DNA of 64,000 nucleotides from a virus (taxonomy: Duplodnaviria > Heunggongvirae > Uroviricota > Caudoviricetes): IMG/VR virus record IMGVR_UViG_3300027628_000007, one strand, 5' to 3'. This document shows positions 5,459 to 46,517 of the stretch, one piece after another. A program made the translations under genes and the position numbers. The notes under the pieces were generated by a model. That model did no database searches and had not been told where the DNA came from. It saw only the letters and a list, made by a program, of their open reading frames with translations. Each line of letters begins with the position of its first letter. Positions within the stretch are counted from its first letter, which is position 1.

Positions 5459-5851
5459 TCAATCAATATAATTATATCTAACTTTACCTGTGAATGAATC
5501 ATGCACACTACCCATGCGAATATCAACAAATGTGCTGTTAGTAAAGTACATTCTAATCTTTACTGGATTACCTTCTATGTGTTCAAGTTCTACGACTTTA
5601 TATACTGTCAAGCCCTCTGTTAACTTTAAAGCCATGATTGGACAAACAAAGTCATCCTTTAATCTGTCGATTTCATCTTCTTTAAACTTGCATACATAAC
5701 CATTTATGAACTCACACACATACGGTCTTTCTACTTCTTCACCTATATAGTCTGTGATAGTGAACAATGAACCTGCTTGTAAGCCACCATGCTCATCACC
5801 ACACCAGATTCGAAACAATGTTTTAAGCACTTGCCCTTTTTCGTATTTCAT
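5459..5851 (-). CDS. Hypothetical protein
   Basis: Start refined by AGGAGG RBS, directly behind a class A promoter. Confidence 0.75.
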   Translation of the reverse strand: MKYEKGQVLKTLFRIWCGDEHGGLQAGSLFTITDYIGEEVERPYVCEFINGYVCKFKEDEIDRLKDDFVCPIMALKLTEGLTVYKVVELEHIEGNPVKIRMYFTNSTFVDIRMGSVHDSFTGKVRYNYID

Positions 5852-5882
5852 ATTCATCCTCCTTTGTGTTTGGCTTACTTAT

Positions 5883-5918
5883 AATATACTATATTCAAGT
5901 TCTGCTGTCAACAGAACT
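5883..5918 (-). promoter_or_regulatory. Class A promoter with 7-bp inverted arms around -35
   Basis: AGTTCTG-TTGACAG-CAGAACT; TTGACA-17-TATATT. Confidence 0.8.
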
Positions 5919-6089
5919 TGAAATTTATTTTTATTTTACCAATCGTCATCGTCACTGTAATAATCGCTACTGCTAGAGCTTGAATTGTTATTCTTATTAT
6001 TACTACGACCAGAGCTACCACCCCTAGCGGAAGATGCTAATACTACTGAAAGCAGAAACGCTACAGTACATATAATCGCTATCCACATA

Positions 6090-6422
6090 TTATTTCTCTC
6101 CTTTTGATTCTGATTTTAATTCTGTGAATACAAAGTATCCATTGACATAATTAAACTCCGTACCTTCTTGTGCATCCTGCTCTACTTGTTTAATCTTTAG
6201 ATGCGGATTCTTTTCTTTAAAGTTCTTGTACTGTAGTGGGAAATCCTTTTTACCGCTATCATGAGGTAAGTAGTAAACTTCATTCTCCACTAATTCAGTA
6301 TAACTAGGATTTGGCAAATCCTTCTCTGTTGATTCGTTATAGTTCTTGTATCCACTGCTACAACCCATTAAAGATATTGACAGACCCATCATTGCAATAA
6401 TACCGATAATTTTCTTTTTCAT
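6090..6422 (-). CDS. Lipoprotein
   Basis: Signal peptide ending in LMGC lipobox. Confidence 0.8.
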   Translation of the reverse strand: MKKKIIGIIAMMGLSISLMGCSSGYKNYNESTEKDLPNPSYTELVENEVYYLPHDSGKKDFPLQYKNFKEKNPHLKIKQVEQDAQEGTEFNYVNGYFVFTELKSESKGEK

Positions 6423-8807: not shown

Positions 8808-9236
8808 TTATTTTCCTCCTTCATTAGTTGGTTTTTCGTAGTAATTATACATCGACTTATTACCACAATCCCATGAGTCATAGTAATACCCATCTTGGCA
8901 CGTTACGATGTGATTTGCTACGTTTAATACATATGTACCCTTCTTGAACTTTTCAGCGAACTGTGCCACTCTAAGGCGTTTGTCACCCTTTTTAATTACC
9001 ATCTTACGAAGGATGAATCCGTTTCTTACAAGATACTCTTTCCACACCTCATCAGAGTTTGGCATACATTTTAATTCAAACCCTAATTCGAACAATTCTC
9101 TGTATACTGTATCCCAGTCTTTACCTGTTGCTTTACACATTGCACGAACTACACAATCACCTGTTTCTAGTTTCTTTGGATTTGGATTAAAATATCTGTT
9201 TCTAGTTTTCTTTTTAACTGATATTACTCTTGTCAT
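8808..9236 (-). CDS. Conserved phage hypothetical protein (DCVVRA family; Cys/His, papain-like possible)
   Basis: NPNP...GDCVVRAMCKATG...NHIVT; start refined by RBS. Confidence 0.75.
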   Translation of the reverse strand: MTRVISVKKKTRNRYFNPNPKKLETGDCVVRAMCKATGKDWDTVYRELFELGFELKCMPNSDEVWKEYLVRNGFILRKMVIKKGDKRLRVAQFAEKFKKGTYVLNVANHIVTCQDGYYYDSWDCGNKSMYNYYEKPTNEGGK

Positions 9237-9249
9237 GTCAATCTCTCCC

Positions 9250-9693
9250 TTAGTATAGTTTTCTCTTAATCTCATCTTGCTTTGCGAACGCTCTAGTATC
9301 CATTTCACTCATTCTTATCCAATATTTATGGTCATCGCTCATATTCCAATACTCATCAATATCACTAGCGAACTTAATCTCACGATACTCTTGTAATAGT
9401 GCTAATGCTTCTGCATTGCTCTTTACACGATTTGGATTAGGGTCTAGGTTATCTCCATCTATAATCTCTACAGTGAGCTTATCATTATTCTCTTCAACTA
9501 GAACTCTTGCGAACCATCCATAATCATAATCGCAAACTGTTTTGATTGCACCTCTTTCTAGCCATTCAGTTCCACTTGGATGATGAGGTAGTAATGTTAA
9601 GAACTTTAAGATATTGTCACGCAATTCAACTGTAAACGGCTTACCATTGGCTTTAACAACATAATCTAATGCTTCTCGAACTGTCATTTGCAT
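9250..9693 (-). CDS. Hypothetical protein
   Basis: ORF with RBS. Confidence 0.75.
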   Translation of the reverse strand: MQMTVREALDYVVKANGKPFTVELRDNILKFLTLLPHHPSGTEWLERGAIKTVCDYDYGWFARVLVEENNDKLTVEIIDGDNLDPNPNRVKSNAEALALLQEYREIKFASDIDEYWNMSDDHKYWIRMSEMDTRAFAKQDEIKRKLY

Positions 9694-38886: not shown

Positions 38887-40104
38887 ATGAAATACATCAT
38901 TGATACGAATGTATTACTTAGAAATCCAGAAATTGTAAAAGAGTATGATGCAGTAATTCCTTCTCATGTATTAAGAGAAATCGAAGACCTAGAGTTAAAA
39001 AGAAAAAGCGATAGAACATTGCAGTTTGAGATTCGCAGATTAAAGAAATTCTTAGATGCGAATGACCATATTTACGTTGACAAAAGAGATTACAAGTTTA
39101 CACTTGATGATGAATTAGATGGTCAATATGTGGACAACATCTTATTACAGGTAGCTGTAGACAACGGTTGGGGTATCGTTACTGGTGACCGTTTAATGAA
39201 GCTGAAATGCAGAGATTACAATATTCCTTTCGTAAATCTAGAAGAAGACCATTTCGTGGAGCACAAAGGATTCAAAGAAGAAGAGCTTTCAGAGACAGAG
39301 TGGATTAATATGATGGACACACCATTTATAAACTACTTTGAGTTAATGATTAATGAATACGCTATCATTAACAATGTAAAAGATGGAGAGCTGTTAGACA
39401 TCGTTAAATGGGATGGAAAAGAGACAAAATCATTACGAGATGCAAATGGCAATCTAGGTGCTAAATTCTCAACTTTACAATTTGGTGAGTTTAAGCCGTT
39501 TGATGAACAACAAATCATGGCAATTGATAGTATTAGAAGTAATCAGTTAACATCTATTCGTGGGCGTGCAGGTAGTGGTAAATCACTAATCACGTTAAAC
39601 ACTGCTTGGAGACTAGTTGAGGAAGAAGGATACAAGCTAGTAATGTTTGTTAACCCAACACCTCTTCGTGAAGCACAAGAGCTTGGATTCTACAAGGGTG
39701 ACCGTAAAGAGAAGTTAATGCAATCAGCAGTAGGTACAATGCTTAAATCTAAATTCGGTAGCGAAGAAGAAATTGAAAAGCAAATCATCTATGAGCGTTT
39801 AGAAATCCTTCCATTCGTAGATTTACGTGGTTGGGACTCTGGTGATAATAAAACTATCGTATGGATTCTAGAAGCACAGAATTTAACGGCAGACCTTATG
39901 AAACTTGGTCTACAACGTATCACAGAGAATACTAAAGTAGTAGTAGATGGAGATTTCCATGCACAGGTCGATAAAGACTCTTACGCTTCTAACAACGGTA
40001 TGAAACGTATGTCAGAGGTGTTTAGAGGGGATGTACTATATGGTGAAGTTGAATTACAAACTGTACACCGTAGCCGTTTAGCAGACCTTGCAGACAAAAT
40101 GTAA
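38887..40104 (+). CDS. phoH: PIN-PhoH fusion (PhoH2-like RNase/ATPase)
   Basis: IIDTNVLL PIN motif; GRAGSGKS, EAQN, VDGD PhoH motifs. Confidence 0.92.
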   Translation: MKYIIDTNVLLRNPEIVKEYDAVIPSHVLREIEDLELKRKSDRTLQFEIRRLKKFLDANDHIYVDKRDYKFTLDDELDGQYVDNILLQVAVDNGWGIVTGDRLMKLKCRDYNIPFVNLEEDHFVEHKGFKEEELSETEWINMMDTPFINYFELMINEYAIINNVKDGELLDIVKWDGKETKSLRDANGNLGAKFSTLQFGEFKPFDEQQIMAIDSIRSNQLTSIRGRAGSGKSLITLNTAWRLVEEEGYKLVMFVNPTPLREAQELGFYKGDRKEKLMQSAVGTMLKSKFGSEEEIEKQIIYERLEILPFVDLRGWDSGDNKTIVWILEAQNLTADLMKLGLQRITENTKVVVDGDFHAQVDKDSYASNNGMKRMSEVFRGDVLYGEVELQTVHRSRLADLADKM

Positions 40105-40156: not shown

Positions 40157-40576
40157 TTGAGTAACAGAGAAACAAGTTTTAGTATGGATAAGGTTGAATT
40201 ATTCCATTGGGATGAAACAGCAGGAGTATTTAAACCATTATCAATCAATGGGGGAATCCCTGTAACGATTGTTGGTGGAGGAACAGGAGGAACTAGCGTG
40301 ACATTTTTAAGCGGTACTGTAGCACCTACGGCAGACAAGGGTGTAGATGGCGATGTGTATTTAAATGCATCTAATGGAGATTTACATAAGAAAGTATCTG
40401 GTGCTTGGACACTATTAATGAACCTTAAAGGAGCAACAGGGGCTACAGGTTTAACTGGTGCAAAAGGTGATAAGGGAGATAAGGGTGACACTGGTGCTAA
40501 AGGTGCAGATGGTTTCGGTACACAAGCTCAATACGATGACATCATCGCTCGTTTAACTGCTTTAGAAACAAAATAA
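40157..40576 (+). CDS. Collagen-like repeat protein
   Basis: G-X-Y run GATGATGLTGAKGDKGDKGDTGAKGADG; start refined. Confidence 0.8.
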   Translation: MSNRETSFSMDKVELFHWDETAGVFKPLSINGGIPVTIVGGGTGGTSVTFLSGTVAPTADKGVDGDVYLNASNGDLHKKVSGAWTLLMNLKGATGATGLTGAKGDKGDKGDTGAKGADGFGTQAQYDDIIARLTALETK

Positions 40577-40582
40577 TAAATC

Positions 40583-40624
40583 GTAACACATTTGGTTGAC
40601 AAGCGTAAATGATAATGATATTAT
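40583..40624 (+). promoter_or_regulatory. Class B promoter
   Basis: GTAACACA-N5-TTGACA-17-TATTAT. Confidence 0.75.
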
Positions 40625-40723
40625 ATAACTACAGCAAGTAACTGTAATTGGACAATCGCATACGCCAATATGTGGGAGTTAAGAAGTTCTCCTAAAAAAA
40701 ACTTCAAATCTTTTTCAACGAAC

Positions 40724-40765
40724 GTAACACATTCAGTTGACAAAAGCAAATAGTAATGATATAAT
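40724..40765 (+). promoter_or_regulatory. Class B promoter driving the tRNA/ncRNA array
   Basis: GTAACACA-N5-TTGACA-17-TATAAT, extended -10. Confidence 0.9.
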
Positions 40766-40794
40766 ACTTATTACAAGGTTAAGAAATTAACCGA

Positions 40795-40856
40795 AAGGCA
40801 CGAACAGCAAACTCACAAACAACTATTCAATTGGTATGAAAATGTGAAGTGCCTTG
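40795..40856 (+). ncRNA. ACAGCAA-stem RNA Y1
   Basis: AAGGCAC-GA-ACAGCAA ... GTGCCTTG; inner TCACA/TGTGA stem. Confidence 0.75.
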
Positions 40857-40863
40857 TTATCAT

Positions 40864-40936
40864 GCTCCTATAGCTCCAATGGTAGAGCGACAGATTGTTA
40901 ATCTGGGTGTTGTTGGTTCGAATCCATCTAGGAGCG
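40864..40936 (+). tRNA. trnN: tRNA-Asn (GTT)
   Basis: Cloverleaf; loop TTGTTAA. Confidence 0.9.
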
Positions 40937-40987
40937 TAAACGTGGCGTACTATCCGCAGACACGTAAAGAAATAGATAGTGATTTAT

Positions 40988-41061
40988 GGCTCATTAGTTT
41001 AATGGTAAAACGGTGCACTGTCTATGCACAGTTAGGGGTTCGATTCCCCTATGGGTCGCCA
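40988..41061 (+). tRNA. trnD: tRNA-Asp (GTC), CCA encoded
   Basis: Cloverleaf; loop CTGTCTA. Confidence 0.92.
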
Positions 41062-41062
41062 T

Positions 41063-41136
41063 ACGTCTTTAGTGTAGTGGTAACACTCTAGTCTCCAAAA
41101 CTAGCATCCTTGGTTCAAATCCAAGAGGGCGTGCCA
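41063..41136 (+). tRNA. trnW: tRNA-Trp (CCA), CCA encoded
   Basis: Cloverleaf; loop CTCCAAA. Confidence 0.92.
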
Positions 41137-41137
41137 C

Positions 41138-41208
41138 GTGGAATTAGTTTAGCGGTAGAATTTCTGATTGCCATTCAGAAGGCAGGGTTTCGATTACCCT
41201 ATTCCACA
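41138..41208 (+). tRNA. trnG: tRNA-Gly (GCC)
   Basis: Cloverleaf; loop TTGCCAT. Confidence 0.88.
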
Positions 41209-41214
41209 TATTAT

Positions 41215-41288
41215 TTCGGTGTAGACAAACTGGTAAAGTCACTAGCCTTTGAAGCTAGGGTTTGGAGGTTCGAAGCCTTCCACCGAAG
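41215..41288 (+). tRNA. trnQ: tRNA-Gln (TTG)
   Basis: Cloverleaf; loop CTTTGAA. Confidence 0.92.
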
Positions 41289-41357
41289 TCTAACCAAAGT
41301 TTCACACTTTGGAAACTAGATATTAATTTCTTAATACTAATATTAGTATCTAGTTTC

Positions 41358-41428
41358 CAGTGTGTGGCGTAATGGTAACGCAGTGGACTGTGAATCCATG
41401 AATGAGAGTTCGATTCTCTCCATGCTGA
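41358..41428 (+). tRNA. trnH: tRNA-His (GTG), lacking G-1/C73
   Basis: Cloverleaf; loop CTGTGAA. Confidence 0.85.
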
Positions 41429-41483
41429 TAAGAGAATGTTTACAGTATTATTCAACTCTTTAAAAAGAAACTGTCCACAACGA

Positions 41484-41556
41484 TGCGGTGAGGACAAATG
41501 GTTAAGTTGCTTGGCTCATAACCAAGAGATAGAGGGTTCGACTCCCTCCACCGTAA
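41484..41556 (+). tRNA. trnM: tRNA-Met/Ile2 (CAT)
   Basis: Cloverleaf; loop CTCATAA; paired 1:72, so not an initiator. Confidence 0.88.
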
Positions 41557-41560
41557 TTTA

Positions 41561-41678
41561 AAGACACTAACAGCTACTACTTACAGAGCAAAACCTTCTA
41601 TCGTTGGTTCGAATCCAACCGTAGGCTTGATGCCTACGTGGACAAGTGGTTAAGTCAAAGGTCAATTAAAGTGTCTTG
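41561..41678 (+). ncRNA. ACAGC-stem RNA Y2 with circularly permuted tRNA module (YrlA-like topology)
   Basis: T arm, closed acceptor hairpin, D arm, ACCTT/AAGGT stem inside AAGACAC/GTGTCTT. Confidence 0.85.
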
Positions 41679-41683
41679 ATTAT

Positions 41684-41764
41684 GCGTGGGTGATGGAACT
41701 GGTAGACATGTGGGACTTAAAATCCCATGCCTAGTGCGTGAGGGTTCGAATCCCTCCCTACGTA
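41684..41764 (+). tRNA. trnL: tRNA-Leu (TAA)
   Basis: Cloverleaf with long variable arm. Confidence 0.9.
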
Positions 41765-41780
41765 TCAACTTTTTACCATA

Positions 41781-41854
41781 GGGGCTGTGGTGAAGGGGTT
41801 TAACACGCTAGTCTGCAAAACTAGTATCCGCCAGTTCAAATCTGGTCAGTCCCT
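41781..41854 (+). tRNA. trnC: tRNA-Cys (GCA)
   Basis: Cloverleaf; U73. Confidence 0.9.
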
Positions 41855-41869
41855 CTCAATTATTATTAC

Positions 41870-41943
41870 GCTCTGTTGGACAAATCGGTCAAGTCGCTAC
41901 CCTTTCAAGGTAGAGAATGCGAGTTCGAATCTCGTACAGAGTA
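41870..41943 (+). tRNA. trnE: tRNA-Glu (TTC)
   Basis: Cloverleaf; loop CTTTCAA. Confidence 0.92.
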
Positions 41944-41947
41944 TACA

Positions 41948-42066
41948 AAGACACATACAGCAACTACATTAAATACACTTTCAGAACAAGTAAGGTCTAG
42001 GTTCGAATCCTAGCGTGGCGTGACTAAGCCATGTGGTGTAATGGGAGCATTAAATAATGTGTCTTG
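41948..42066 (+). ncRNA. ACAGCAA-stem RNA Y3 with permuted T/acceptor/D module
   Basis: CTAGG-TTCGAAT-CCTAG, CGTGGC/GCCATG, GTGT-AATGGGA-GCAT inside AAGACAC/GTGTCTT. Confidence 0.85.
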
Positions 42067-42094
42067 CAGAGAGTCTAGTCAACTCTCACCACAT

Positions 42095-42165
42095 GGTCAG
42101 TTCGTATAGTGGAAATACAATCGGCTGATAACCGATAAACGGAAGTTCAATTCTTTCACTGACCA
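42095..42165 (+). tRNA. trnI: tRNA-Ile (GAT)
   Basis: Cloverleaf; loop CTGATAA. Confidence 0.9.
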
Positions 42166-42175
42166 TTTATATTAT

Positions 42176-42259
42176 GTTGGTGCGGTAACGTTGGAGTGTT
42201 ACGGTGGGCTGTAACCCCATTGGCATTTGCCTTAGTAGGTTCGAATCCTATCACCTTCA
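42176..42259 (+). tRNA. trnY: tRNA-Tyr (GTA), two acceptor mismatches
   Basis: Long variable arm; T.T at 2:71 and 3:70. Confidence 0.75.
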
Positions 42260-42270
42260 TCTTTTATTAT

Positions 42271-42343
42271 GGCGAAGTAATCCAACGGCAGAGATAGTGG
42301 TCTTAGAAGCCATCCAGTGAGGGTTCGAATCCCTCTTTCGCTA
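42271..42343 (+). tRNA. trnL: tRNA-Leu (TAG) with short variable loop
   Basis: Cloverleaf; 5-nt variable region; A73. Confidence 0.85.
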
Positions 42344-42349
42344 TTCCTA

Positions 42350-42473
42350 AAGGCATGTACAGCAATTAAAAAATTCGGTCAGCCATTATTTGACTAGTAG
42401 CTCAACTGGTTAGAGCATCCGATTGATAATCGGAAGGTTGTTGGTTCGAGTCCAACCTTAATTGTGTGCCTTG
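42350..42473 (+). ncRNA. ACAGCAA-stem RNA Y4 enclosing an acceptor-less tRNA-Ile(GAT) body
   Basis: Intact D, anticodon and T arms nested in AAGGCAT/GTGCCTT and CAATTAA/TTAATTG. Confidence 0.85.
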
Positions 42474-42481
42474 TTTATTAC

Positions 42482-42555
42482 GTGGATATGGGGCAGTCTG
42501 GTAGCCTACTCCTTTTGGAAGGGAGATGTCGCAGGTTCAAATCCTGCTATCCGCA
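42482..42555 (+). tRNA. trnP: tRNA-Pro (TGG)
   Basis: Cloverleaf; loop TTTGGAA. Confidence 0.9.
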
Positions 42556-42626
42556 CTAATCTTACTGGTGTTCTAGATTTCAAAGACGAAGACTAGAGTT
42601 AAGCTTCTCTTATAAAAAGCATTCTT

Positions 42627-42710
42627 GGACGGTTAGACATAATGGTATTGGGTCGGTCTTGAAAACCGATGGGGGTAAAACCTTTGGGAGTTCGAATCTC
42701 TCACCGTCCG
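42627..42710 (+). tRNA. trnS: tRNA-Ser (TGA)
   Basis: Long variable arm; G73. Confidence 0.88.
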
Positions 42711-42716
42711 TATCTT

Positions 42717-42806
42717 GGATAGTTGTCAGAGTTAGGCTTATCGTGCTTCCCTGCTAAGGAAGTGTGGGTAACACCACCACAGGTTCAAATCCTGTACTAT
42801 CCGCCA
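42717..42806 (+). tRNA. trnS: tRNA-Ser (GCT), CCA encoded
   Basis: Long variable arm; loop CTGCTAA. Confidence 0.9.
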
Positions 42807-42807
42807 C

Positions 42808-42879
42808 GTGGAATTAGTGTAATTGGCAACATCGGTGATTTCCAATCATCTGTTACGAGTTCGACCCTCGTATTCCACA
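42808..42879 (+). tRNA. trnG: tRNA-Gly (TCC)
   Basis: Cloverleaf; same acceptor stem as the GCC copy. Confidence 0.9.
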
Positions 42880-42884
42880 TATTT

Positions 42885-42956
42885 ATCTCTATAGTGTAAT
42901 GGACAACACACAGGACTACGAATCCTGTAATTGAGGTTCGAATCCTCATAGGGATG
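42885..42956 (+). tRNA. trnR: tRNA-Arg (ACG)
   Basis: Cloverleaf; loop CTACGAA. Confidence 0.92.
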
Positions 42957-42962
42957 TATTTT

Positions 42963-43036
42963 CTCCACTTAGCTCAATTGGACAGAGCGGTAGGTTTCTA
43001 CCCTATAGGTTAGGGGTTCGAGTCCTCTAGTGGAGG
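42963..43036 (+). tRNA. trnR: tRNA-Arg (TCT)
   Basis: Cloverleaf; loop TTTCTAC. Confidence 0.92.
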
Positions 43037-43040
43037 TATG

Positions 43041-43103
43041 TAGGCTCTAACAGCAATCATAATCCATTTGACTGTTAATCAAAAAAAGGTATAAAGAGCC
43101 TAG
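43041..43103 (+). ncRNA. ACAGCAA-stem RNA Y5 carrying an isolated tRNA-Asn anticodon stem-loop
   Basis: TAGGCTC/GAGCCTA stem; TTTGA-CTGTTAA-TCAAA. Confidence 0.8.
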
Positions 43104-43116
43104 TTTTTAAAATAAT

Positions 43117-43158
43117 GTAACACACTTGCTTGACAAAAGCAAAAGATAATAGTATAAT
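43117..43158 (+). promoter_or_regulatory. Class B promoter of Y6-Y7-TROVE
   Basis: GTAACACA-N5-TTGACA-17-TATAAT. Confidence 0.9.
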
Positions 43159-43165
43159 TAACTCA

Positions 43166-43242
43166 TAGACTCACACAGCAATCTACATACATATGACCAA
43201 ATTTAAAGATTAAAAGAATTTATCAAAAGTATTAGAGTCTAG
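43166..43242 (+). ncRNA. ACAGCAA-stem RNA Y6
   Basis: TAGACTC-AC-ACAGCAA ... GAGTCTAG, starting about 8 nt after the -10. Confidence 0.75.
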
Positions 43243-43255
43243 CAATACTGTTTTA

Positions 43256-43355
43256 AAGACACACACAGCAATCCTAAACCAAACAACTTACATTAAAAGA
43301 TGAATATTATGTGAACTTGGGGTAACAGCCGACTCACAAAAGGTTTAGTGTCTTG
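43256..43355 (+). ncRNA. ACAGCAA-stem RNA Y7
   Basis: AAGACAC-AC-ACAGCAA ... GTGTCTTG; inner TAAACC/GGTTTA. Confidence 0.8.
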
Positions 43356-43451
43356 TTATTAAACAGTTTCTTGCATTTTAAATAACATGATTTAGAGTTT
43401 GAGAAAGTATTTAATAAAAACAATTAAAAGAGAAAAAGGAGTAGTGATACT

Positions 43452-44933
43452 ATGTTAAATCATTTGCAAAACGAGTTTAACAAATCAAAAACAGCGAATG
43501 GGGCATTTGCTTATAAGAGCACAAAGTCAGATGTACTTGACTTGTTTTCTACTGGTGGTGCATTCCGTAATCGCAGTGACGAAGATGTAAAGGTTTTAGT
43601 TTCTAAAGCTTATGGTGAAAATCCAGAATTAGCTATGAAAACCTTATTCTATCTTCGTGATATTACAGAGGGTCAAGGTGAAAGACGTTTCTTCCGAGTT
43701 GCTATGCAACATTTAGCTCTTCATCACAAAGAGTCATTAAAGAAGAATTTAGCGTTAGTGCCTGCATTTGGTCGATGGGATGACTTATGGGTGTTGCTAG
43801 ACACAGACTTAAAGGCAGACGTATTAGCTTTAGTTAAACGTCAATTAAATGCTGATAAGAAAGCAGAACATCCAAGCTTACTAGCTAAGTGGATGCCATC
43901 TGAAAATGCTTCTAGTTACAAGACTAAGAAGTATGCAAAAATCATGCGTGAGCATTTTGGTGTAAAACCAAAGCAATACCGTAAGACATTATCTGCTTTA
44001 AGAGCGAAGTTGAACTTAGTTGAGACTAAGCTTACAGATAAGCGTTATGGAGAAATTCAATATGATAAACTGCCATCACGTGCAGGATTAATTTATCGTG
44101 GAGCATTCTTCCGTAATGATGAAGACCGTTACAAAGACTTTTTGGACAGCTTGACTAAAGGTGAAGTTAAGATTAATGCTAAAACATTATATCCATACGA
44201 CATCGTTAGCAAATGTTTCCAAGGTTTTAGAGGTCAAAACATCTGGGGTGGATTTGGGAAAGAACTAACAAGAGAAGAAATTCAATTGTTAGATGCACAA
44301 TGGAAAGCGTTGCCAGACTTCATTGATGGTGCGAGTGAAAACTCTATCGCTGTCGTGGACACATCTGGTAGCATGACTGGAAATCCAATGAACGTTGCAG
44401 TGTCTTTAGGTATCTACCTAGCTGAACGTAACAAAGGAGTATTCCATAATCACTTCTTAACTTTCAACAGCAGACCAGACCTTAAAAAAGTCGTAGGTGG
44501 CAATATTGTTGAAAAGGCACGTAACTTGTCTGATTCAAGTTGGGGTGGCTCAACTAACATTGAAGCCGTATTCCAAAAAATCTTGGACACAGCAGTTAAA
44601 AACAACGTACCTAAAGAAGAAATGATTGCCAAAGTGTACATCATCTCTGACATGCAGTTTAACCAATGTACGCAAGGTGCTGATACACACATCTTCAAGC
44701 ATATGGCAGAGAAATTCGAAGCTAAAGGTTACGAATTGCCAAACTTAGTATTCTGGAATGTGAACGCATTCGTGAGTAACACACAGTTTACTATGAATGA
44801 GCAAGGAGTGCAATTAGTATCTGGATTGTCACCATCCATCTTCAAGCAATTGTTAGATGCGAATGGCAAGACTGCATATGAGTTGATGTTAGATGTAATT
44901 GAGTCTGATAGATACAAAGAGGTAACAGCGTAA
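43452..44933 (+). CDS. TROVE/Ro60-like (DUF2828-type) protein with C-terminal vWA domain
   Basis: T.NGA.A..ST, LFYLRD..GQGERR, GRWDDL, LAKW.PSE helical region; DTSGSM MIDAS and ISDMQFN. Confidence 0.85.
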   Translation: MLNHLQNEFNKSKTANGAFAYKSTKSDVLDLFSTGGAFRNRSDEDVKVLVSKAYGENPELAMKTLFYLRDITEGQGERRFFRVAMQHLALHHKESLKKNLALVPAFGRWDDLWVLLDTDLKADVLALVKRQLNADKKAEHPSLLAKWMPSENASSYKTKKYAKIMREHFGVKPKQYRKTLSALRAKLNLVETKLTDKRYGEIQYDKLPSRAGLIYRGAFFRNDEDRYKDFLDSLTKGEVKINAKTLYPYDIVSKCFQGFRGQNIWGGFGKELTREEIQLLDAQWKALPDFIDGASENSIAVVDTSGSMTGNPMNVAVSLGIYLAERNKGVFHNHFLTFNSRPDLKKVVGGNIVEKARNLSDSSWGGSTNIEAVFQKILDTAVKNNVPKEEMIAKVYIISDMQFNQCTQGADTHIFKHMAEKFEAKGYELPNLVFWNVNAFVSNTQFTMNEQGVQLVSGLSPSIFKQLLDANGKTAYELMLDVIESDRYKEVTA

Positions 44934-45057
44934 GCTGTTCCTCATAATAGAATAATTCTTGCGTAAGCAAGTGGTCGGGAAGAGAAATAGAAAAGGTCAA
45001 GGGCATACGCTCTTGGCTTATTCTAGTGTTATAAACAATAAAAAGGAGTTTTTAAGA

Positions 45058-45258
45058 ATGGCAAAAAGAACAAATTCATTTCAAGTAAAAGGTGAACTAA
45101 GCCTAGCAGAAGGTGTAATTTACGAAGTTAAAAAAGAAGAAGTGTTAACAATCCCTTTCTTTGATATCTTAAAAGAATTTGAAGGAAAAACAATTACATT
45201 CTCTATTAAAGAAGAAAATGAAATTACAGGCGATGAAGCACCAGAATTAGAAGACTAA
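45058..45258 (+). CDS. yonK: YonK-family protein
   Basis: Sequence resemblance and SPbeta-like position; start refined by RBS. Confidence 0.7.
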   Translation: MAKRTNSFQVKGELSLAEGVIYEVKKEEVLTIPFFDILKEFEGKTITFSIKEENEITGDEAPELED

Positions 45259-45275
45259 GAGTAAGGGTGATTACA

Positions 45276-46517
45276 ATGAGGTCATATACTAACAAGAGCG
45301 GTGAACTTATCAAGGTAAGTGAAGAGCATTTAAATACTGCTGTTAGAATTAAGAAAGAACTACAGAACGCATCACCATCAAGAAAGTGCTCATGGTCACT
45401 TCTAGTTAAGATGATGGAGCGTGAGGGCTACTTTGATGCAGATAACAATGAATCATATAGATGCATGATTAAAGCCTTCCAGAAGAGCGTAGGAGAGCTT
45501 CCAGAAGCTCCTAAATATGCTAACATGGTAGCCGACTCAAAGCTTGAATCAATCAAGGAACTGGTTGGAGAAGTGGCGTATGAGAAGCGTGAGAATCAAC
45601 ATGTACTACGAGAGCTTAATAAAGTTAAACGAGATGTGATTGATTTCGCTATCACAGCAGAACAAATTGGCAATGCATTAAAAGAACATGATTTCACTGC
45701 ATTAAAATTTGAAGCACAACCTATCAATATTATTGGCAAGTCTAAGATGGTAGTTAGTTTATCTGATTTACATATCGGTGCAGTTGTTGATAATAAAGTA
45801 AATACATATGATTATGATATTGCGATTAAAAGAATGCAGAAATATTTAAACAAGATTGTAGCAGAGATAAAAGCTAACAACATTTCAGAAGTATATGTTA
45901 TGAATCTTGGAGATACAGTAGAACATTCTTCTATGAGATTTGCACAAGGTTATAAAGTAGAGTTTTCATATTCAGAACAGATTGTAAGAGCATCTGATTT
46001 AATTCAAAAATTCTTAATCGGTCTTGCGGAATATGCAGAAGTAAAATACGCAGGCATAGCAGGAAATCACGATAGAGTAGATGGAGATAAGAATAAAGGT
46101 ATTGATGGTGACCATGCGGTTAAAGCTATCAATTATACAATCAAGCAATTTATCGAAAATGCTAGAATCGAAAGAATCACATATGAACAAGCAGAAGATT
46201 ACAAACATTCGTTTGTAGTAGGTGGTAAGAATATTTTAGCATTACATGGTGATTTAGACAACCAGAACAATCCTAATCTATTAGCAAACCATTCTAAGAA
46301 TGACGGTATTGATTATGACTTAGTATTAATGGGTCACACTCATACACGATTCTTAAAAGAAGTACATGATAATAAATTCATTTCAGTAAGTGGAAGCTTG
46401 AAGGGTGCAGATGATTTCGTATTGAATAAATTACGCAAAGTTTCATCGCCATCACAGAGCTATCACATCATTAGAGAAGATGGAGAAATCGAAGTAAGAT
46501 GGGTAACATTCTTCTAG
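45276..46517 (+). CDS. Calcineurin-like metallophosphoesterase (YonJ-like)
   Basis: SDLH, GD, GNHD, HGD, GHTH motifs. Confidence 0.9.
   Translation: MRSYTNKSGELIKVSEEHLNTAVRIKKELQNASPSRKCSWSLLVKMMEREGYFDADNNESYRCMIKAFQKSVGELPEAPKYANMVADSKLESIKELVGEVAYEKRENQHVLRELNKVKRDVIDFAITAEQIGNALKEHDFTALKFEAQPINIIGKSKMVVSLSDLHIGAVVDNKVNTYDYDIAIKRMQKYLNKIVAEIKANNISEVYVMNLGDTVEHSSMRFAQGYKVEFSYSEQIVRASDLIQKFLIGLAEYAEVKYAGIAGNHDRVDGDKNKGIDGDHAVKAINYTIKQFIENARIERITYEQAEDYKHSFVVGGKNILALHGDLDNQNNPNLLANHSKNDGIDYDLVLMGHTHTRFLKEVHDNKFISVSGSLKGADDFVLNKLRKVSSPSQSYHIIREDGEIEVRWVTFF

What the first reader, a model, noticed from the sequence alone, without database searches (positions are those of the whole stretch)
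42350..42473. Y4: complete tRNA-Ile(GAT) D/anticodon/T arms grafted into the handle in place of an acceptor stem
Seen: GCTC/GAGC, TCCGA-TTGATAA-TCGGA and GTTGG/CCAAC are all perfect. The acceptor does not pair and is replaced by an extra hairpin plus CAATTAA/TTAATTG. A normal tRNA-Ile(GAT) is present at 42095, so this is not the decoding copy. Annotators would call it a pseudo-tRNA. Inference: a selected unchargeable decoy; the handle attaches at the opposite end from Y2, showing modularity.
Basis: partly seen in the sequence, partly recalled or inferred. Interest (0 to 1): 0.8.

Follow-up and report, generated by a model that had tools for sequence, protein, structure and literature searches.

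The report
Capped tRNA-Ile mimic on Ro60-like handle
A Bacillus phage encodes, inside its tRNA operon, a 124-nt RNA that copies the host isoleucine tRNA but has a closed acceptor end. It carries the "handle" shared by the probable partner RNAs of a phage Ro60-like protein, so it is most likely a tRNA mimic and not a decoding tRNA.

Summary
Window 42350-42473 holds perfect D, anticodon (GAU) and T arms, and no conventional acceptor stem. It sits in a Tsamsa-like Bacillus phage tRNA array.

The element is one of seven RNAs in the window that share a 7-bp terminal stem, 2 nt, ACAGCWA and a closing G. In 80 viral loci holding homologues of the downstream DUF2828 gene, this handle occurs 149 times on the gene's strand and twice on the other. 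The AlphaFold model of that protein matches only Ro60/TROVE structures at the top of the list.

The acceptor is not simply missing. A 5-6 bp capped hairpin plus 2 bp (AG/CU) rebuild a 7-8 bp acceptor arm. The handle leaves sideways at tRNA position 67/68, so the RNA is a tRNA circularly permuted in the acceptor 3' strand.

Nine relatives in five lineages keep all six helices: 99% of cells pair and 21 of 29 pairs show compensatory change. They also keep positions 35-37 (AUA) of the anticodon loop (L081 excepted) and, in eight of the nine, a CC(A/U) in the cap loop. The body resembles cellular Bacillaceae tRNA-Ile far more than the phage's own tRNA-Ile.

Selection and modularity are supported. 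"Unchargeable decoy" remains inference. This scan has already noted the handle/DUF2828 family in at least 133 other genomes. I found no Rfam family, and no paper in the library searched, that describes it.

The parts
42350..42356 (+). Handle, 5' strand (AAGGCAU); pairs with 42466-42472
   Evidence: Six of the 7 pairs covary in 9 relatives.
42357..42365 (+). 5' bulge: 2-nt spacer GU plus the family motif ACAGCAA (42359-42365)
   Evidence: The motif is fixed in all seven window elements and in 149 elements beside DUF2828 genes. UCAGCAA is a variant in L132/L135.
42362..42368 (+). Second helix P2, 5' strand (GCAAUUA); pairs with 42459-42465 (UAAUUGU) and overlaps the end of the motif in this lineage
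   Evidence: A P2 helix of different sequence exists in BcoS-136, L042 and L081. It is absent in the L059 variant.
42377..42395 (+). Capped acceptor mimic: GGUCAG / loop CCAUUAU / UUGACU. The 3' strand stands in for tRNA positions 1-5.
   Evidence: 6 of 6 pairs covary. The cap loop keeps CC in all Ile-type relatives.
42396..42397 (+). AG (tRNA positions 6-7), pairing with CU at 42457-42458 (positions 66-67)
   Evidence: Rfam tRNA match starts at model position 6. Both pairs covary.
42398..42417 (+). U8-A9, D arm GCUC-AACUGGUUA-GAGC, and A26
   Evidence: D stem changes compensatorily to GCUU/AAGC in L059. Positions 15:48 covary as A:U or G:C.
42418..42434 (+). Anticodon arm UCCGA-UUGAUAA-UCGGA; anticodon GAU at 42425-42427
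   Evidence: Four of 5 stem pairs covary. Loop positions 35-37 (AUA) are invariant in all relatives except L081.
42435..42456 (+). Variable loop AGGUU and T arm GUUGG-UUCGAGU-CCAAC
42457..42473 (+). 3' side: CU (66-67), P2 3' strand UAAUUGU, handle 3' strand GUGCCUU, closing G
42094..42166 (+). The phage's canonical tRNA-Ile(GAU), shown for contrast. Only 33 of 59 core positions are identical to the element.
43452..44933 (+). DUF2828/DUF7788 protein, 493 aa, with a Ro60-like fold: the presumed protein partner of the handle
40795..43355 (+). The other six handle RNAs of the window, at 40795-40856, 41561-41678, 41948-42066, 43041-43103, 43166-43242 and 43256-43355

Best explanation
The element is a small non-coding RNA. 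It is one member of a family whose shared handle (7-bp terminal stem, 5' bulge with ACAGCAA, second helix) most likely binds the phage's Ro60-like DUF2828 protein, in the way Y RNAs bind Ro60.

Its cargo is a complete L-shaped copy of the host-type tRNA-Ile(GAU): anticodon arm, elbow and acceptor arm. The acceptor end is closed by a loop, and the chain enters and leaves through the acceptor 3' strand at position 67/68.

It is probably transcribed with the tRNA array from the promoter at 40737-40765. It would be released when the flanking tRNA-Leu (ends 42344) and tRNA-Pro (starts 42482) are processed.

Bound to the protein, the tRNA-shaped part presents the Ile anticodon loop, the elbow and a CCA-like cap to some factor that recognises tRNA-Ile, without taking part in decoding. 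It could work as a decoy or competitor, or as a tether that brings that factor to the Ro60-like ring.

Shown: the structure, its conservation, its family membership, the genomic link of the handle to DUF2828, and the Ro60-like predicted fold. Inferred: binding, release as a separate RNA, no aminoacylation, and the identity of the target.
For: Structure:
- The arms and the composite acceptor can be read directly from the sequence.

Conservation:
- Nine elements from five lineages were aligned to one model. They are the window, PBC2, L013 and L059; vB_BcoS-136; L042; L081; and L132/L135.
- 99.2% of cells pair and 21 of 29 pairs changed on both sides. None of 500 shuffles reached this. Slid controls gave 17-45% paired.
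- The tertiary 15:48 pair covaries (A:U or G:C).
- Loop positions 35-37 (AUA) and the cap-loop CC are kept while neighbouring loop positions vary.

Host mimicry:
- The cores are 46-52 of 59 identical to cellular Bacillaceae tRNA-Ile. They are 32-35 of 59 identical to the window phage's own tRNA-Ile.

Not a decoder:
- There is no free acceptor ends as transcribed.
- The BcoS-136 orthologue has A33 instead of the universal U33.
- L132/L135 carry the anticodon AAU.

Family and protein link:
- 149 handle elements lie on the DUF2828 strand against 2 on the other, in 80 loci whose DUF2828 is 35-99% identical. Often one lies directly upstream of the gene.
- DUF2828 genes also lie beside handle elements in unrelated contigs found by DNA pattern alone.
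- The AF2 model has pLDDT 83 and pTM 0.83. The 12 best PDB matches are all Ro60/TROVE, with E from 2e-8 to 2e-5.

Cargo theme:
- 62 of 197 family elements carry a 5-bp stem with a 7-nt YU-NNN-R-N loop. The shuffled mean is 4.5.

Known precedent:
- Ro60 partners with tRNA-mimicking Y RNAs (PMC4201824, PMC12135203).
Against: - No direct evidence exists that the RNA accumulates or binds the protein. RNA-library contigs that cover it are 2-2.5 kb long and could be DNA carry-over or unprocessed precursor.
- The handle lacks the bacterial Y-RNA motif GNCGAAN0-1G. It scores only 17.8 bits against Rfam YrlA, whose threshold is 69.
- The protein does not match the Pfam TROVE family.
- The element is patchy. 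It is absent from Thrax3, Izhevsk and six further relatives sampled, so it is dispensable.
- In the closest variant (L059) the second helix is lost.
- The cap loop's CCA leaves room for processing into a chargeable two-piece RNA.
- No RNA ligase (RtcB, Rnl) was found in the 83%-complete phage record. An RNA-repair role therefore has no local support.
Confidence: 0.58

Rival explanations
1. It is a precursor of a working, unusual tRNA-Ile. RNase P cuts in the cap loop at +1, the upstream fragment is trimmed to ...CCA (or CCA is added), and the two pieces stay paired through the handle, P2 and the 5-bp cap stem. IleRS then charges this two-piece tRNA.
For: - The cap loop reads CC(A/U) directly after the strand that stands in for positions 68-72(73) in all Ile-type relatives. 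The phage's ordinary tRNA genes, by contrast, do not encode CCA.
- Positions 35-38 (AUAA) are kept in all six GAU-type relatives, though the anticodon itself is AAU in L132/L135.
- PBC2 shows no canonical tRNA-Ile in the part of its array that was examined.
- M. smegmatis YrlA is cut by RNase P in its acceptor loop and receives CCA (PMC4201824).
Against: - Half the variants have CCU, not CCA.
- A33 in BcoS-136 and the AAU anticodon in L132/L135 do not fit a decoder.
- A 14-bp side arm projecting from the acceptor stem would clash with EF-Tu and the ribosome. This is inference.
- The same handle carries cargo that cannot be a tRNA at all.
Confidence: 0.1
2. The handle is a cis-acting processing or stability stalk of the tRNA operon: a leader-trailer helix recognised by a nuclease such as RNase III/Mini-III or the upstream PIN-PhoH protein. 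The tRNA-like body is only a tolerated remnant, with no function in trans.
For: - The elements lie within polycistronic tRNA arrays and in the leader of the DUF2828 gene.
- A PIN-PhoH RNase gene is syntenic upstream in Tsamsa-like phages.
- Some relatives enclose tRNA bodies with full 7-bp acceptor stems (L076, L085, L098, L124). These could be released as tRNAs.
Against: A remnant would not keep six helices by compensatory change, the 15:48 tertiary pair, the anticodon loop and the cap CC across five lineages. Most tRNAs of the array have no handle.
Confidence: 0.14
3. It is a decaying pseudo-tRNA whose acceptor was disrupted by insertion of a repeat. The handle would be the terminal inverted repeat of a small mobile DNA element.
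For: Distribution among close relatives is patchy, the array is mosaic with HNH endonuclease genes, and P2 is lost in L059.
Against: - Handle stems differ in sequence between copies and covary, instead of being conserved as transposon ends would be.
- The strand bias is 149 to 2.
- The arms are perfect here and kept by compensatory change elsewhere.
Confidence: 0.04
4. The same RNP, but with a regulatory target. The mimic would engage a sensor of tRNA-Ile status, such as the ileS T-box leader or IleRS itself. It would read out as a permanently blocked or uncharged tRNA-Ile, so as to reset host isoleucyl-tRNA supply.
For: All three epitopes that a T-box reads are present and conserved: anticodon GAU, elbow, and NCCA in natural polarity. 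The body is host-like. The T-box mechanism is recalled from the literature, not tested here.
Against: This is pure inference. The closed 3' end would look 'charged' to a T-box. L132/L135 have AAU and L081 has another loop. Other family members display other anticodons, which argues for a more general role.
Confidence: 0.08

Closest known systems
YrlA-type bacterial and phage Y RNAs bound by Ro60/Rsr (Chen et al. 2014, PMC4201824; Rfam RF02553)
   Same: - A terminal stem made of the 5' and 3' ends, with a conserved motif on the 5' strand.
- A tRNA-like module whose acceptor stem is closed by a loop.
- The gene lies beside the gene of a Ro60-shaped protein.
- Several different RNAs per genome.
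   Different: - The motif is ACAGCAA, not GNCGAAN0-1G.
- There is no significant match to RF02553 (17.8 bits against 69).
- The protein is DUF2828, not Pfam TROVE.
- YrlA is opened at the anticodon and has no anticodon arm. This RNA keeps the whole anticodon arm and is opened in the acceptor 3' strand.
Thermus phage phiLo Ro60 with Yrl1/Yrl2 (PMC12135203; PDB 9KOP, 9L5Y)
   Same: A phage-encoded Ro60-fold protein with RNAs encoded just upstream. 9KOP is the second-best structural match of the DUF2828 model.
   Different: Those RNAs were picked by the CGAA motif and bind host PNPase. No tRNA-Ile body is described.
Class I RNAs of dictyostelid amoebae (Kjellin et al. 2021, PMC7919456; Rfam RF01414)
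   Same: The paper describes a short covarying terminal stem, a start at AAG, an end at CUGU, and an 11-nt motif next to the 5' stem with T3, C6, C9, A10 and A11 fixed. The handle here (AAG..., NNUNACAGCAA, ...CUUG-U) fits that pattern.
   Different: RF01414 gave no match at E up to 5-10 on three stretches of this window. Class I RNAs are 42-65 nt, without tRNA cargo. No link to DUF2828 was shown.
Circularly permuted tRNA genes, as in the red alga Cyanidioschyzon merolae (recalled from the literature, not checked here)
   Same: The 3' acceptor strand plus CCA-like letters lie upstream of position +1 and are joined to it by a short linker.
   Different: Those genes are processed through a circular intermediate into normal tRNAs. 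Here the break lies at 67/68 and is occupied by a conserved protein-binding handle.
Cellular tRNA-Ile(GAU) of Bacillaceae
   Same: 46-52 of 59 core positions are identical, with the same D loop, T loop, anticodon and A37-A38.
   Different: There are no free 5' and 3' ends on the acceptor stem. The acceptor is capped and has a side arm. A33 occurs in one orthologue.

Membership tests
tRNA (Rfam RF00005) | D, anticodon and T arms with a 7-nt anticodon loop and conserved loop residues | tested here: met
   55.5 bits against a threshold of 29; ARAGORN calls Ile(gat).
tRNA (Rfam RF00005) | 7-bp acceptor stem formed by the free 5' end and the 3' end, which carries N73-CCA | tested here: not met
   The model matches positions 6-65 only. 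Positions 1-5 pair with an upstream strand through a capping loop.
tRNA (decoding function) | U33 and a natural anticodon kept in orthologues | tested here: not met
   A33 in vB_BcoS-136; AAU in L132/L135; U33 is present in the window itself.
Y RNA / YrlA (RF02553) | Match to the covariance model and the 5'-strand motif GNCGAAN0-1G | tested here: not met
   17.8 bits against 69. The motif is ACAGCAA.
Y RNA / YrlA (RF02553) | Encoded next to a Ro60 orthologue | tested here: inconclusive
   The neighbour has a Ro60-like predicted fold, but it belongs to DUF2828/DUF7788, not Pfam TROVE.
Y RNA / YrlA (RF02553) | tRNA-like domain with a loop-closed acceptor stem | tested here: met
Y RNA / YrlA (RF02553) | Bound by the Ro60 protein | not testable with these tools
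   Needs RIP or EMSA.
ACAGCAA-handle RNAs beside DUF2828 (uncatalogued; defined in this scan) | 7-bp covarying terminal stem, 2 nt, ACAGCWA, closing G, same strand as a DUF2828 gene | tested here: met
Dictyostelid Class I RNA (RF01414) | Match to the covariance model | tested here: not met
   No match at E up to 5-10.
Ro60/TROVE protein (for the partner gene) | HEAT-repeat ring plus vWA domain | tested here: met
   Foldseek: the top 12 PDB matches are all Ro60, over about 520-580 aligned columns, TM 0.41-0.59. This rests on a predicted model only.
Ro60/TROVE protein (for the partner gene) | Sequence match to Pfam TROVE or to solved Ro60 chains | tested here: not met
   Pfam gives only DUF2828 and DUF7788. 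phmmer against PDB sequences gives nothing at E up to 1.

The most novel reading that the evidence does not exclude
Phages use a Ro60-like protein loaded with a set of interchangeable tRNA-part RNAs. This whole-body, closed-acceptor copy of host tRNA-Ile would be a dedicated bait. It would capture or misdirect a host factor that acts on tRNA-Ile, such as an anticodon nuclease of a defence system, a tRNA-modifying or charging enzyme, or a T-box sensor. That would make it a new kind of viral counter-measure built on tRNA mimicry. The handle may be shared with the so far orphan Class I RNAs of social amoebae.
Probability: 0.3. Interest if true: 0.85.

Novelty: new variant of a known kind. Interest (0 to 1): 0.66.

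Why it matters
Ro60/Y-RNA particles are known from animals to bacteria, yet the purpose of the tRNA-like domain of bacterial Y RNAs is still unknown.

This family displays tRNA parts in a graded series: a lone anticodon arm, the elbow only, or the whole body. It sits on one protein-binding handle, in phages that can be grown in the laboratory, such as PBC2 and vB_BcoS-136.

The whole-body Ile member gives a defined bait for finding which host factor these particles engage. It also warns annotators that some "tRNA-Ile" genes in phage arrays are not tRNAs.

Tried and rejected
- Rfam at gathering threshold and at permissive E-values found no family for the handle. This covered the whole window, then 40550-43460, 43035-43110 and 40790-40862.
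- A specific DNA pattern for the Ile-type element was scanned in metagenome contigs. It returned only contigs already seen in IMG/VR. In genome contigs it found nothing. No prophage copies were found this way.
- The first, looser pattern scan of viral contigs gave mostly short handle hairpins that merely precede an ordinary tRNA. They are useful for the family, not for this subclass.
- Six more close relatives were fetched through DUF2828 proteins. They hold no Ile-type element. The two best model hits there are a handle RNA followed by a normal tRNA-Asn, and a normal tRNA-Ile.
- Sequencing runs: soil metatranscriptome contigs of three studies cover the array, this element included, in 2-2.5 kb pieces of a related variant. 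Contigs cannot show ends, strand or level, and DNA may be present in the libraries. This is no evidence of expression or of processing.
- RtcB and Rnl RNA-ligase families were not found in the 83%-complete phage record.
- Removal of the 27-nt insert as an intron was considered. It would leave a 9-bp acceptor, and there is no bulge-helix-bulge or group I features. Rejected.
- The T-box/IleRS idea could not be tested.
- No protein-complex prediction was run, because the open question concerns an RNA-protein contact.

Full report
**Where it lies.** The window comes from a Tsamsa-like Bacillus phage. Its nearest database relatives are vB_BanS-Thrax3, PBC2, Izhevsk and Tsamsa. The source is an IMG/VR record of 139.8 kb. 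Positions 40863-43037 hold 19 tRNA genes. The array lies between a PIN-PhoH ribonuclease-type gene (38887-40104) and a 493-aa DUF2828/DUF7788 gene (43452-44933). After these come YonK and a metallophosphatase. Consensus sigma-A-type promoters sit at 40737-40765 and 43130-43158.

**The observation.** The D stem is GCTC/GAGC, the anticodon arm is TCCGA-TTGATAA-TCGGA, and the T arm is GTTGG-TTCGAGT-CCAAC. An extra hairpin and CAATTAA/TTAATTG are also there.
- ARAGORN forces a tRNA-Ile(gat) call at 42391-42465.
- The Rfam tRNA model aligns only positions 6-65 (55.5 bits). The body is therefore a very good tRNA, and the acceptor is not matched.
- The stretch folds more stably than all 200 shuffles (z = -3.15).
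- A normal tRNA-Ile(gat) is at 42094-42166.

**The handle family.** The element begins AAGGCAT-GT-ACAGCAA and ends GTGCCTT-G. Six other elements in the window have the same plan: a 7-bp stem, 2 nt, ACAGCWA, variable cargo, the complementary 7-mer and a G. Their stems differ from one another.
- A strict script for this plan found 149 elements on the gene's strand and 2 on the opposite strand. It was run on 80 IMG/VR loci chosen only because they encode a DUF2828 homologue of 35-99% identity. Often one element lies directly upstream of the gene.
- Conversely, contigs found by a DNA pattern alone often carry the handle, and five of them have a DUF2828 gene within the fetched flank.
- No Rfam family matches these elements.

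**The protein.** An AlphaFold model of the DUF2828 protein has pLDDT 83 and pTM 0.83.
- Its 12 best PDB matches are only Ro60/TROVE structures, aligned over the full length. They include Xenopus and human Ro60, Deinococcus Rsr and Thermus phage phiLo Ro60.
- Sequence methods do not see this relationship.
- The handle RNAs are therefore best read as the Y-RNA counterparts of a second, Ro60-like protein family.
- Earlier notes of this scan reached the same family-level reading in at least 133 other genomes. I re-derived it here independently.

**Anatomy of this member**. The order along the RNA is:
1. Handle 5' strand.
2. A bulge holding ACAGCAA.
3. The 5' strand of a second helix, P2 (GCAAUUA).
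4. An 8-nt linker.
5. GGUCAG, the loop CCAUUAU, then UUGACU.
6. AG, then U8-A9.
7. D arm, anticodon arm, variable loop and T arm.
8. CU, then the P2 3' strand (UAAUUGU).
9. Handle 3' strand and the closing G.

The 3' strand of the "extra" hairpin runs with no intervening base into AG-U8-A9. It therefore occupies tRNA positions 1-5, AG/CU are pairs 6:67 and 7:66, and the hairpin's 5' strand stands in for positions 68-72.

The acceptor arm thus exists as a capped 7-8 bp helix that can stack on the T stem. P2 and the handle leave at 67/68. In other words, the RNA is a tRNA circularly permuted in its acceptor 3' strand.

The window's elements at 41561 and 41948 also have a loop-closed acceptor. 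They are opened at the anticodon instead, like YrlA (PMC4201824). The zero-nucleotide junction between the cap hairpin and AG is kept in all relatives. This is why I prefer that stacking, but it is an inference.

**Relatives.**
- The same architecture occurs in PBC2 (95% identical, annotated tRNA-Ile).
- It occurs in two groups of metagenomic phages whose DUF2828 is 99% identical to the window's (L013/L062 and L059-L061).
- It occurs in Bacillus cohnii phage vB_BcoS-136 (78% identical, unannotated).
- It occurs in an unrelated 140-kb contig (L042), in L081, and in L132/L135. In L132/L135 DUF2828 is only 36% identical, and the element lies directly upstream of the gene.

A covariance model built from seven of these realigned all nine. 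On that alignment:
- 99.2% of cells form standard pairs.
- 21 of 29 pairs show changes on both sides: handle 6/7, cap hairpin 6/6, AG/CU 2/2, D 1/4, anticodon stem 4/5, T 2/5.
- No shuffle of 500 reaches these values.
- Sliding the partners drops pairing to 17-45%.

The caveat is that the alignment is fitted to the model. The helices can also be read directly in the unaligned sequences.

The Levitt pair 15:48 is A:U in the window, PBC2, L013, L059, BcoS-136 and L042, and G:C in L081, as in cellular tRNA-Ile. That speaks for selection on the three-dimensional L shape.

**What is kept in the loops.** The anticodon loop reads UUGAUAA (window group), CAGAUAA (BcoS-136), CUGAUAA (L042) and CUAAUAC (L132/L135). 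Positions 35-37 (AUA) are fixed, while 32-33 vary and include A33. L081 differs, with CAUUGAU.

The cap loop reads CCAUUAU, CCUAAAU, CCAAAAU, ACCAUUA, ACCUC and CCAAAA. A CC, followed by A or U, always sits right after the strand standing in for 68-72(73), in natural polarity. The phage's ordinary tRNA genes do not encode CCA. Cellular Bacillaceae tRNA-Ile genes do.

The cores are 46-52 of 59 identical to cellular tRNA-Ile(GAU). They are only 32-35 of 59 identical to the window phage's own tRNA-Ile.

The simplest origin is a host-type tRNA-Ile dimer from which a window running from position 68 of copy one to position 67 of copy two was retained. That is inference.

**Wider cargo pattern.** Among 197 family elements, 62 contain a 5-bp stem with a 7-nt YU-NNN-R-N loop, against a shuffled mean of 4.5. 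These are T arms in the long elements. In many 48-90-nt elements they are lone anticodon-arm look-alikes, for example CUGUUAA at window 43041-43103 and in BcoS-136. Other whole-body members carry other anticodons. Some of those have uninterrupted 7-bp acceptor stems. This member is thus the "whole body, capped" grade of a modular series.

**How it probably works.** I commit to the following, with about 0.58 confidence for the core.
- The RNA is released from the array transcript by processing of its flanking tRNAs. These lie 5 nt upstream and 8 nt downstream.
- Its handle binds the Ro60-like protein.
- Its body acts as a non-decoding mimic of host tRNA-Ile that engages a tRNA-Ile-recognising factor.

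Whether it sequesters that factor (decoy) or tethers it to the ring is open, and so is the factor's identity. The patchy distribution fits an accessory, conflict-type role. The element is absent from Thrax3, Izhevsk and six more relatives. Its fast divergence beside a 99%-identical protein gene fits the same role.

Rivals:
- A processed two-piece chargeable tRNA (0.10).
- A cis-acting processing stalk with a tolerated remnant (0.14).
- A regulatory mimic aimed at T-box or IleRS (0.08).
- A decaying pseudo-tRNA with a mobile repeat (0.04).

**Comparison with the known.** The element works like a YrlA-type Y RNA. It fails the membership tests for that family (motif, covariance model), and its protein is not a Pfam TROVE member. 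The handle fits the published description of dictyostelid Class I RNAs (PMC7919456), a lead from earlier notes of this scan, but RF01414 does not match here. I found no paper in the library that describes DUF2828-linked RNAs. Absence from that library is not proof.

**Verdict.** The feature is real and conserved. It is a new architectural variant of a tRNA-mimicking Y-like RNA: anticodon arm retained, acceptor capped with a CCA-like loop, and handle attached at 67/68. It belongs to an uncatalogued but widespread family. Function is inferred only.

Noticed in passing
window 42179-42255: A tRNA-Tyr-like gene (anticodon loop CTGTAAC, long variable arm) that ARAGORN does not call and Rfam scores only as a weak tRNA-Sec (25 bits). 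Its acceptor has two T-T mismatches. Izhevsk carries a near-identical, unannotated copy (L003:3003-3088). An annotated tRNA-Tyr sits in the corresponding part of the array in Thrax3 and BcoS-136.
   Followed up: partly
window 43041-43103 and L006:3054-3117: A 63-nt handle RNA whose only structured cargo is an Asn-type anticodon arm (UUUGA-CUGUUAA-UCAAA). It is conserved between the window and phage vB_BcoS-136. Similar lone anticodon-arm cargo with other anticodons occurs in many unrelated phages.
   Followed up: partly
L076:2251-2362, L085:2157-2269, L098:2268-2384, L124:3881-3983: Handle RNAs that enclose tRNA bodies with complete 7-bp acceptor stems. The anticodon loops include UCA, which reads UGA, plus UCU and UGA. 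These might be released as real tRNAs, so the handle could also serve as a leader-trailer clamp.
   Followed up: no
window 41290-41357: A long, nearly perfect inverted repeat (about 14 bp arms around an AT-rich loop) between tRNA-Gln and tRNA-His. Its purpose is unknown.
   Followed up: no
L009 (-) 9075-9488 and L046 (-) 5717-6313: Tandem arrays of near-identical ~50-nt handle hairpins (AGAGTGC... and TAACTGG... stems) in unrelated viral contigs. In L009 some are nested inside a second, larger handle element.
   Followed up: no
window 38887-40104 and 43452-46517; L001, L003, L006 (upstream PIN-PhoH cut off in L002): The synteny PIN-PhoH gene, tRNA/handle-RNA array, DUF2828, YonK, metallophosphatase, YonG_N-type gene is conserved across Tsamsa-like phages. 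HNH or GIY-YIG endonuclease genes are inserted at varying places in the array.
   Followed up: partly
window 40629-40648: Right after the promoter at 40596-40624 lies a small hairpin, TACAG-CAAGTAA-CTGTA, that contains ACAGCAA but lacks the 7-bp terminal stem of the family.
   Followed up: no
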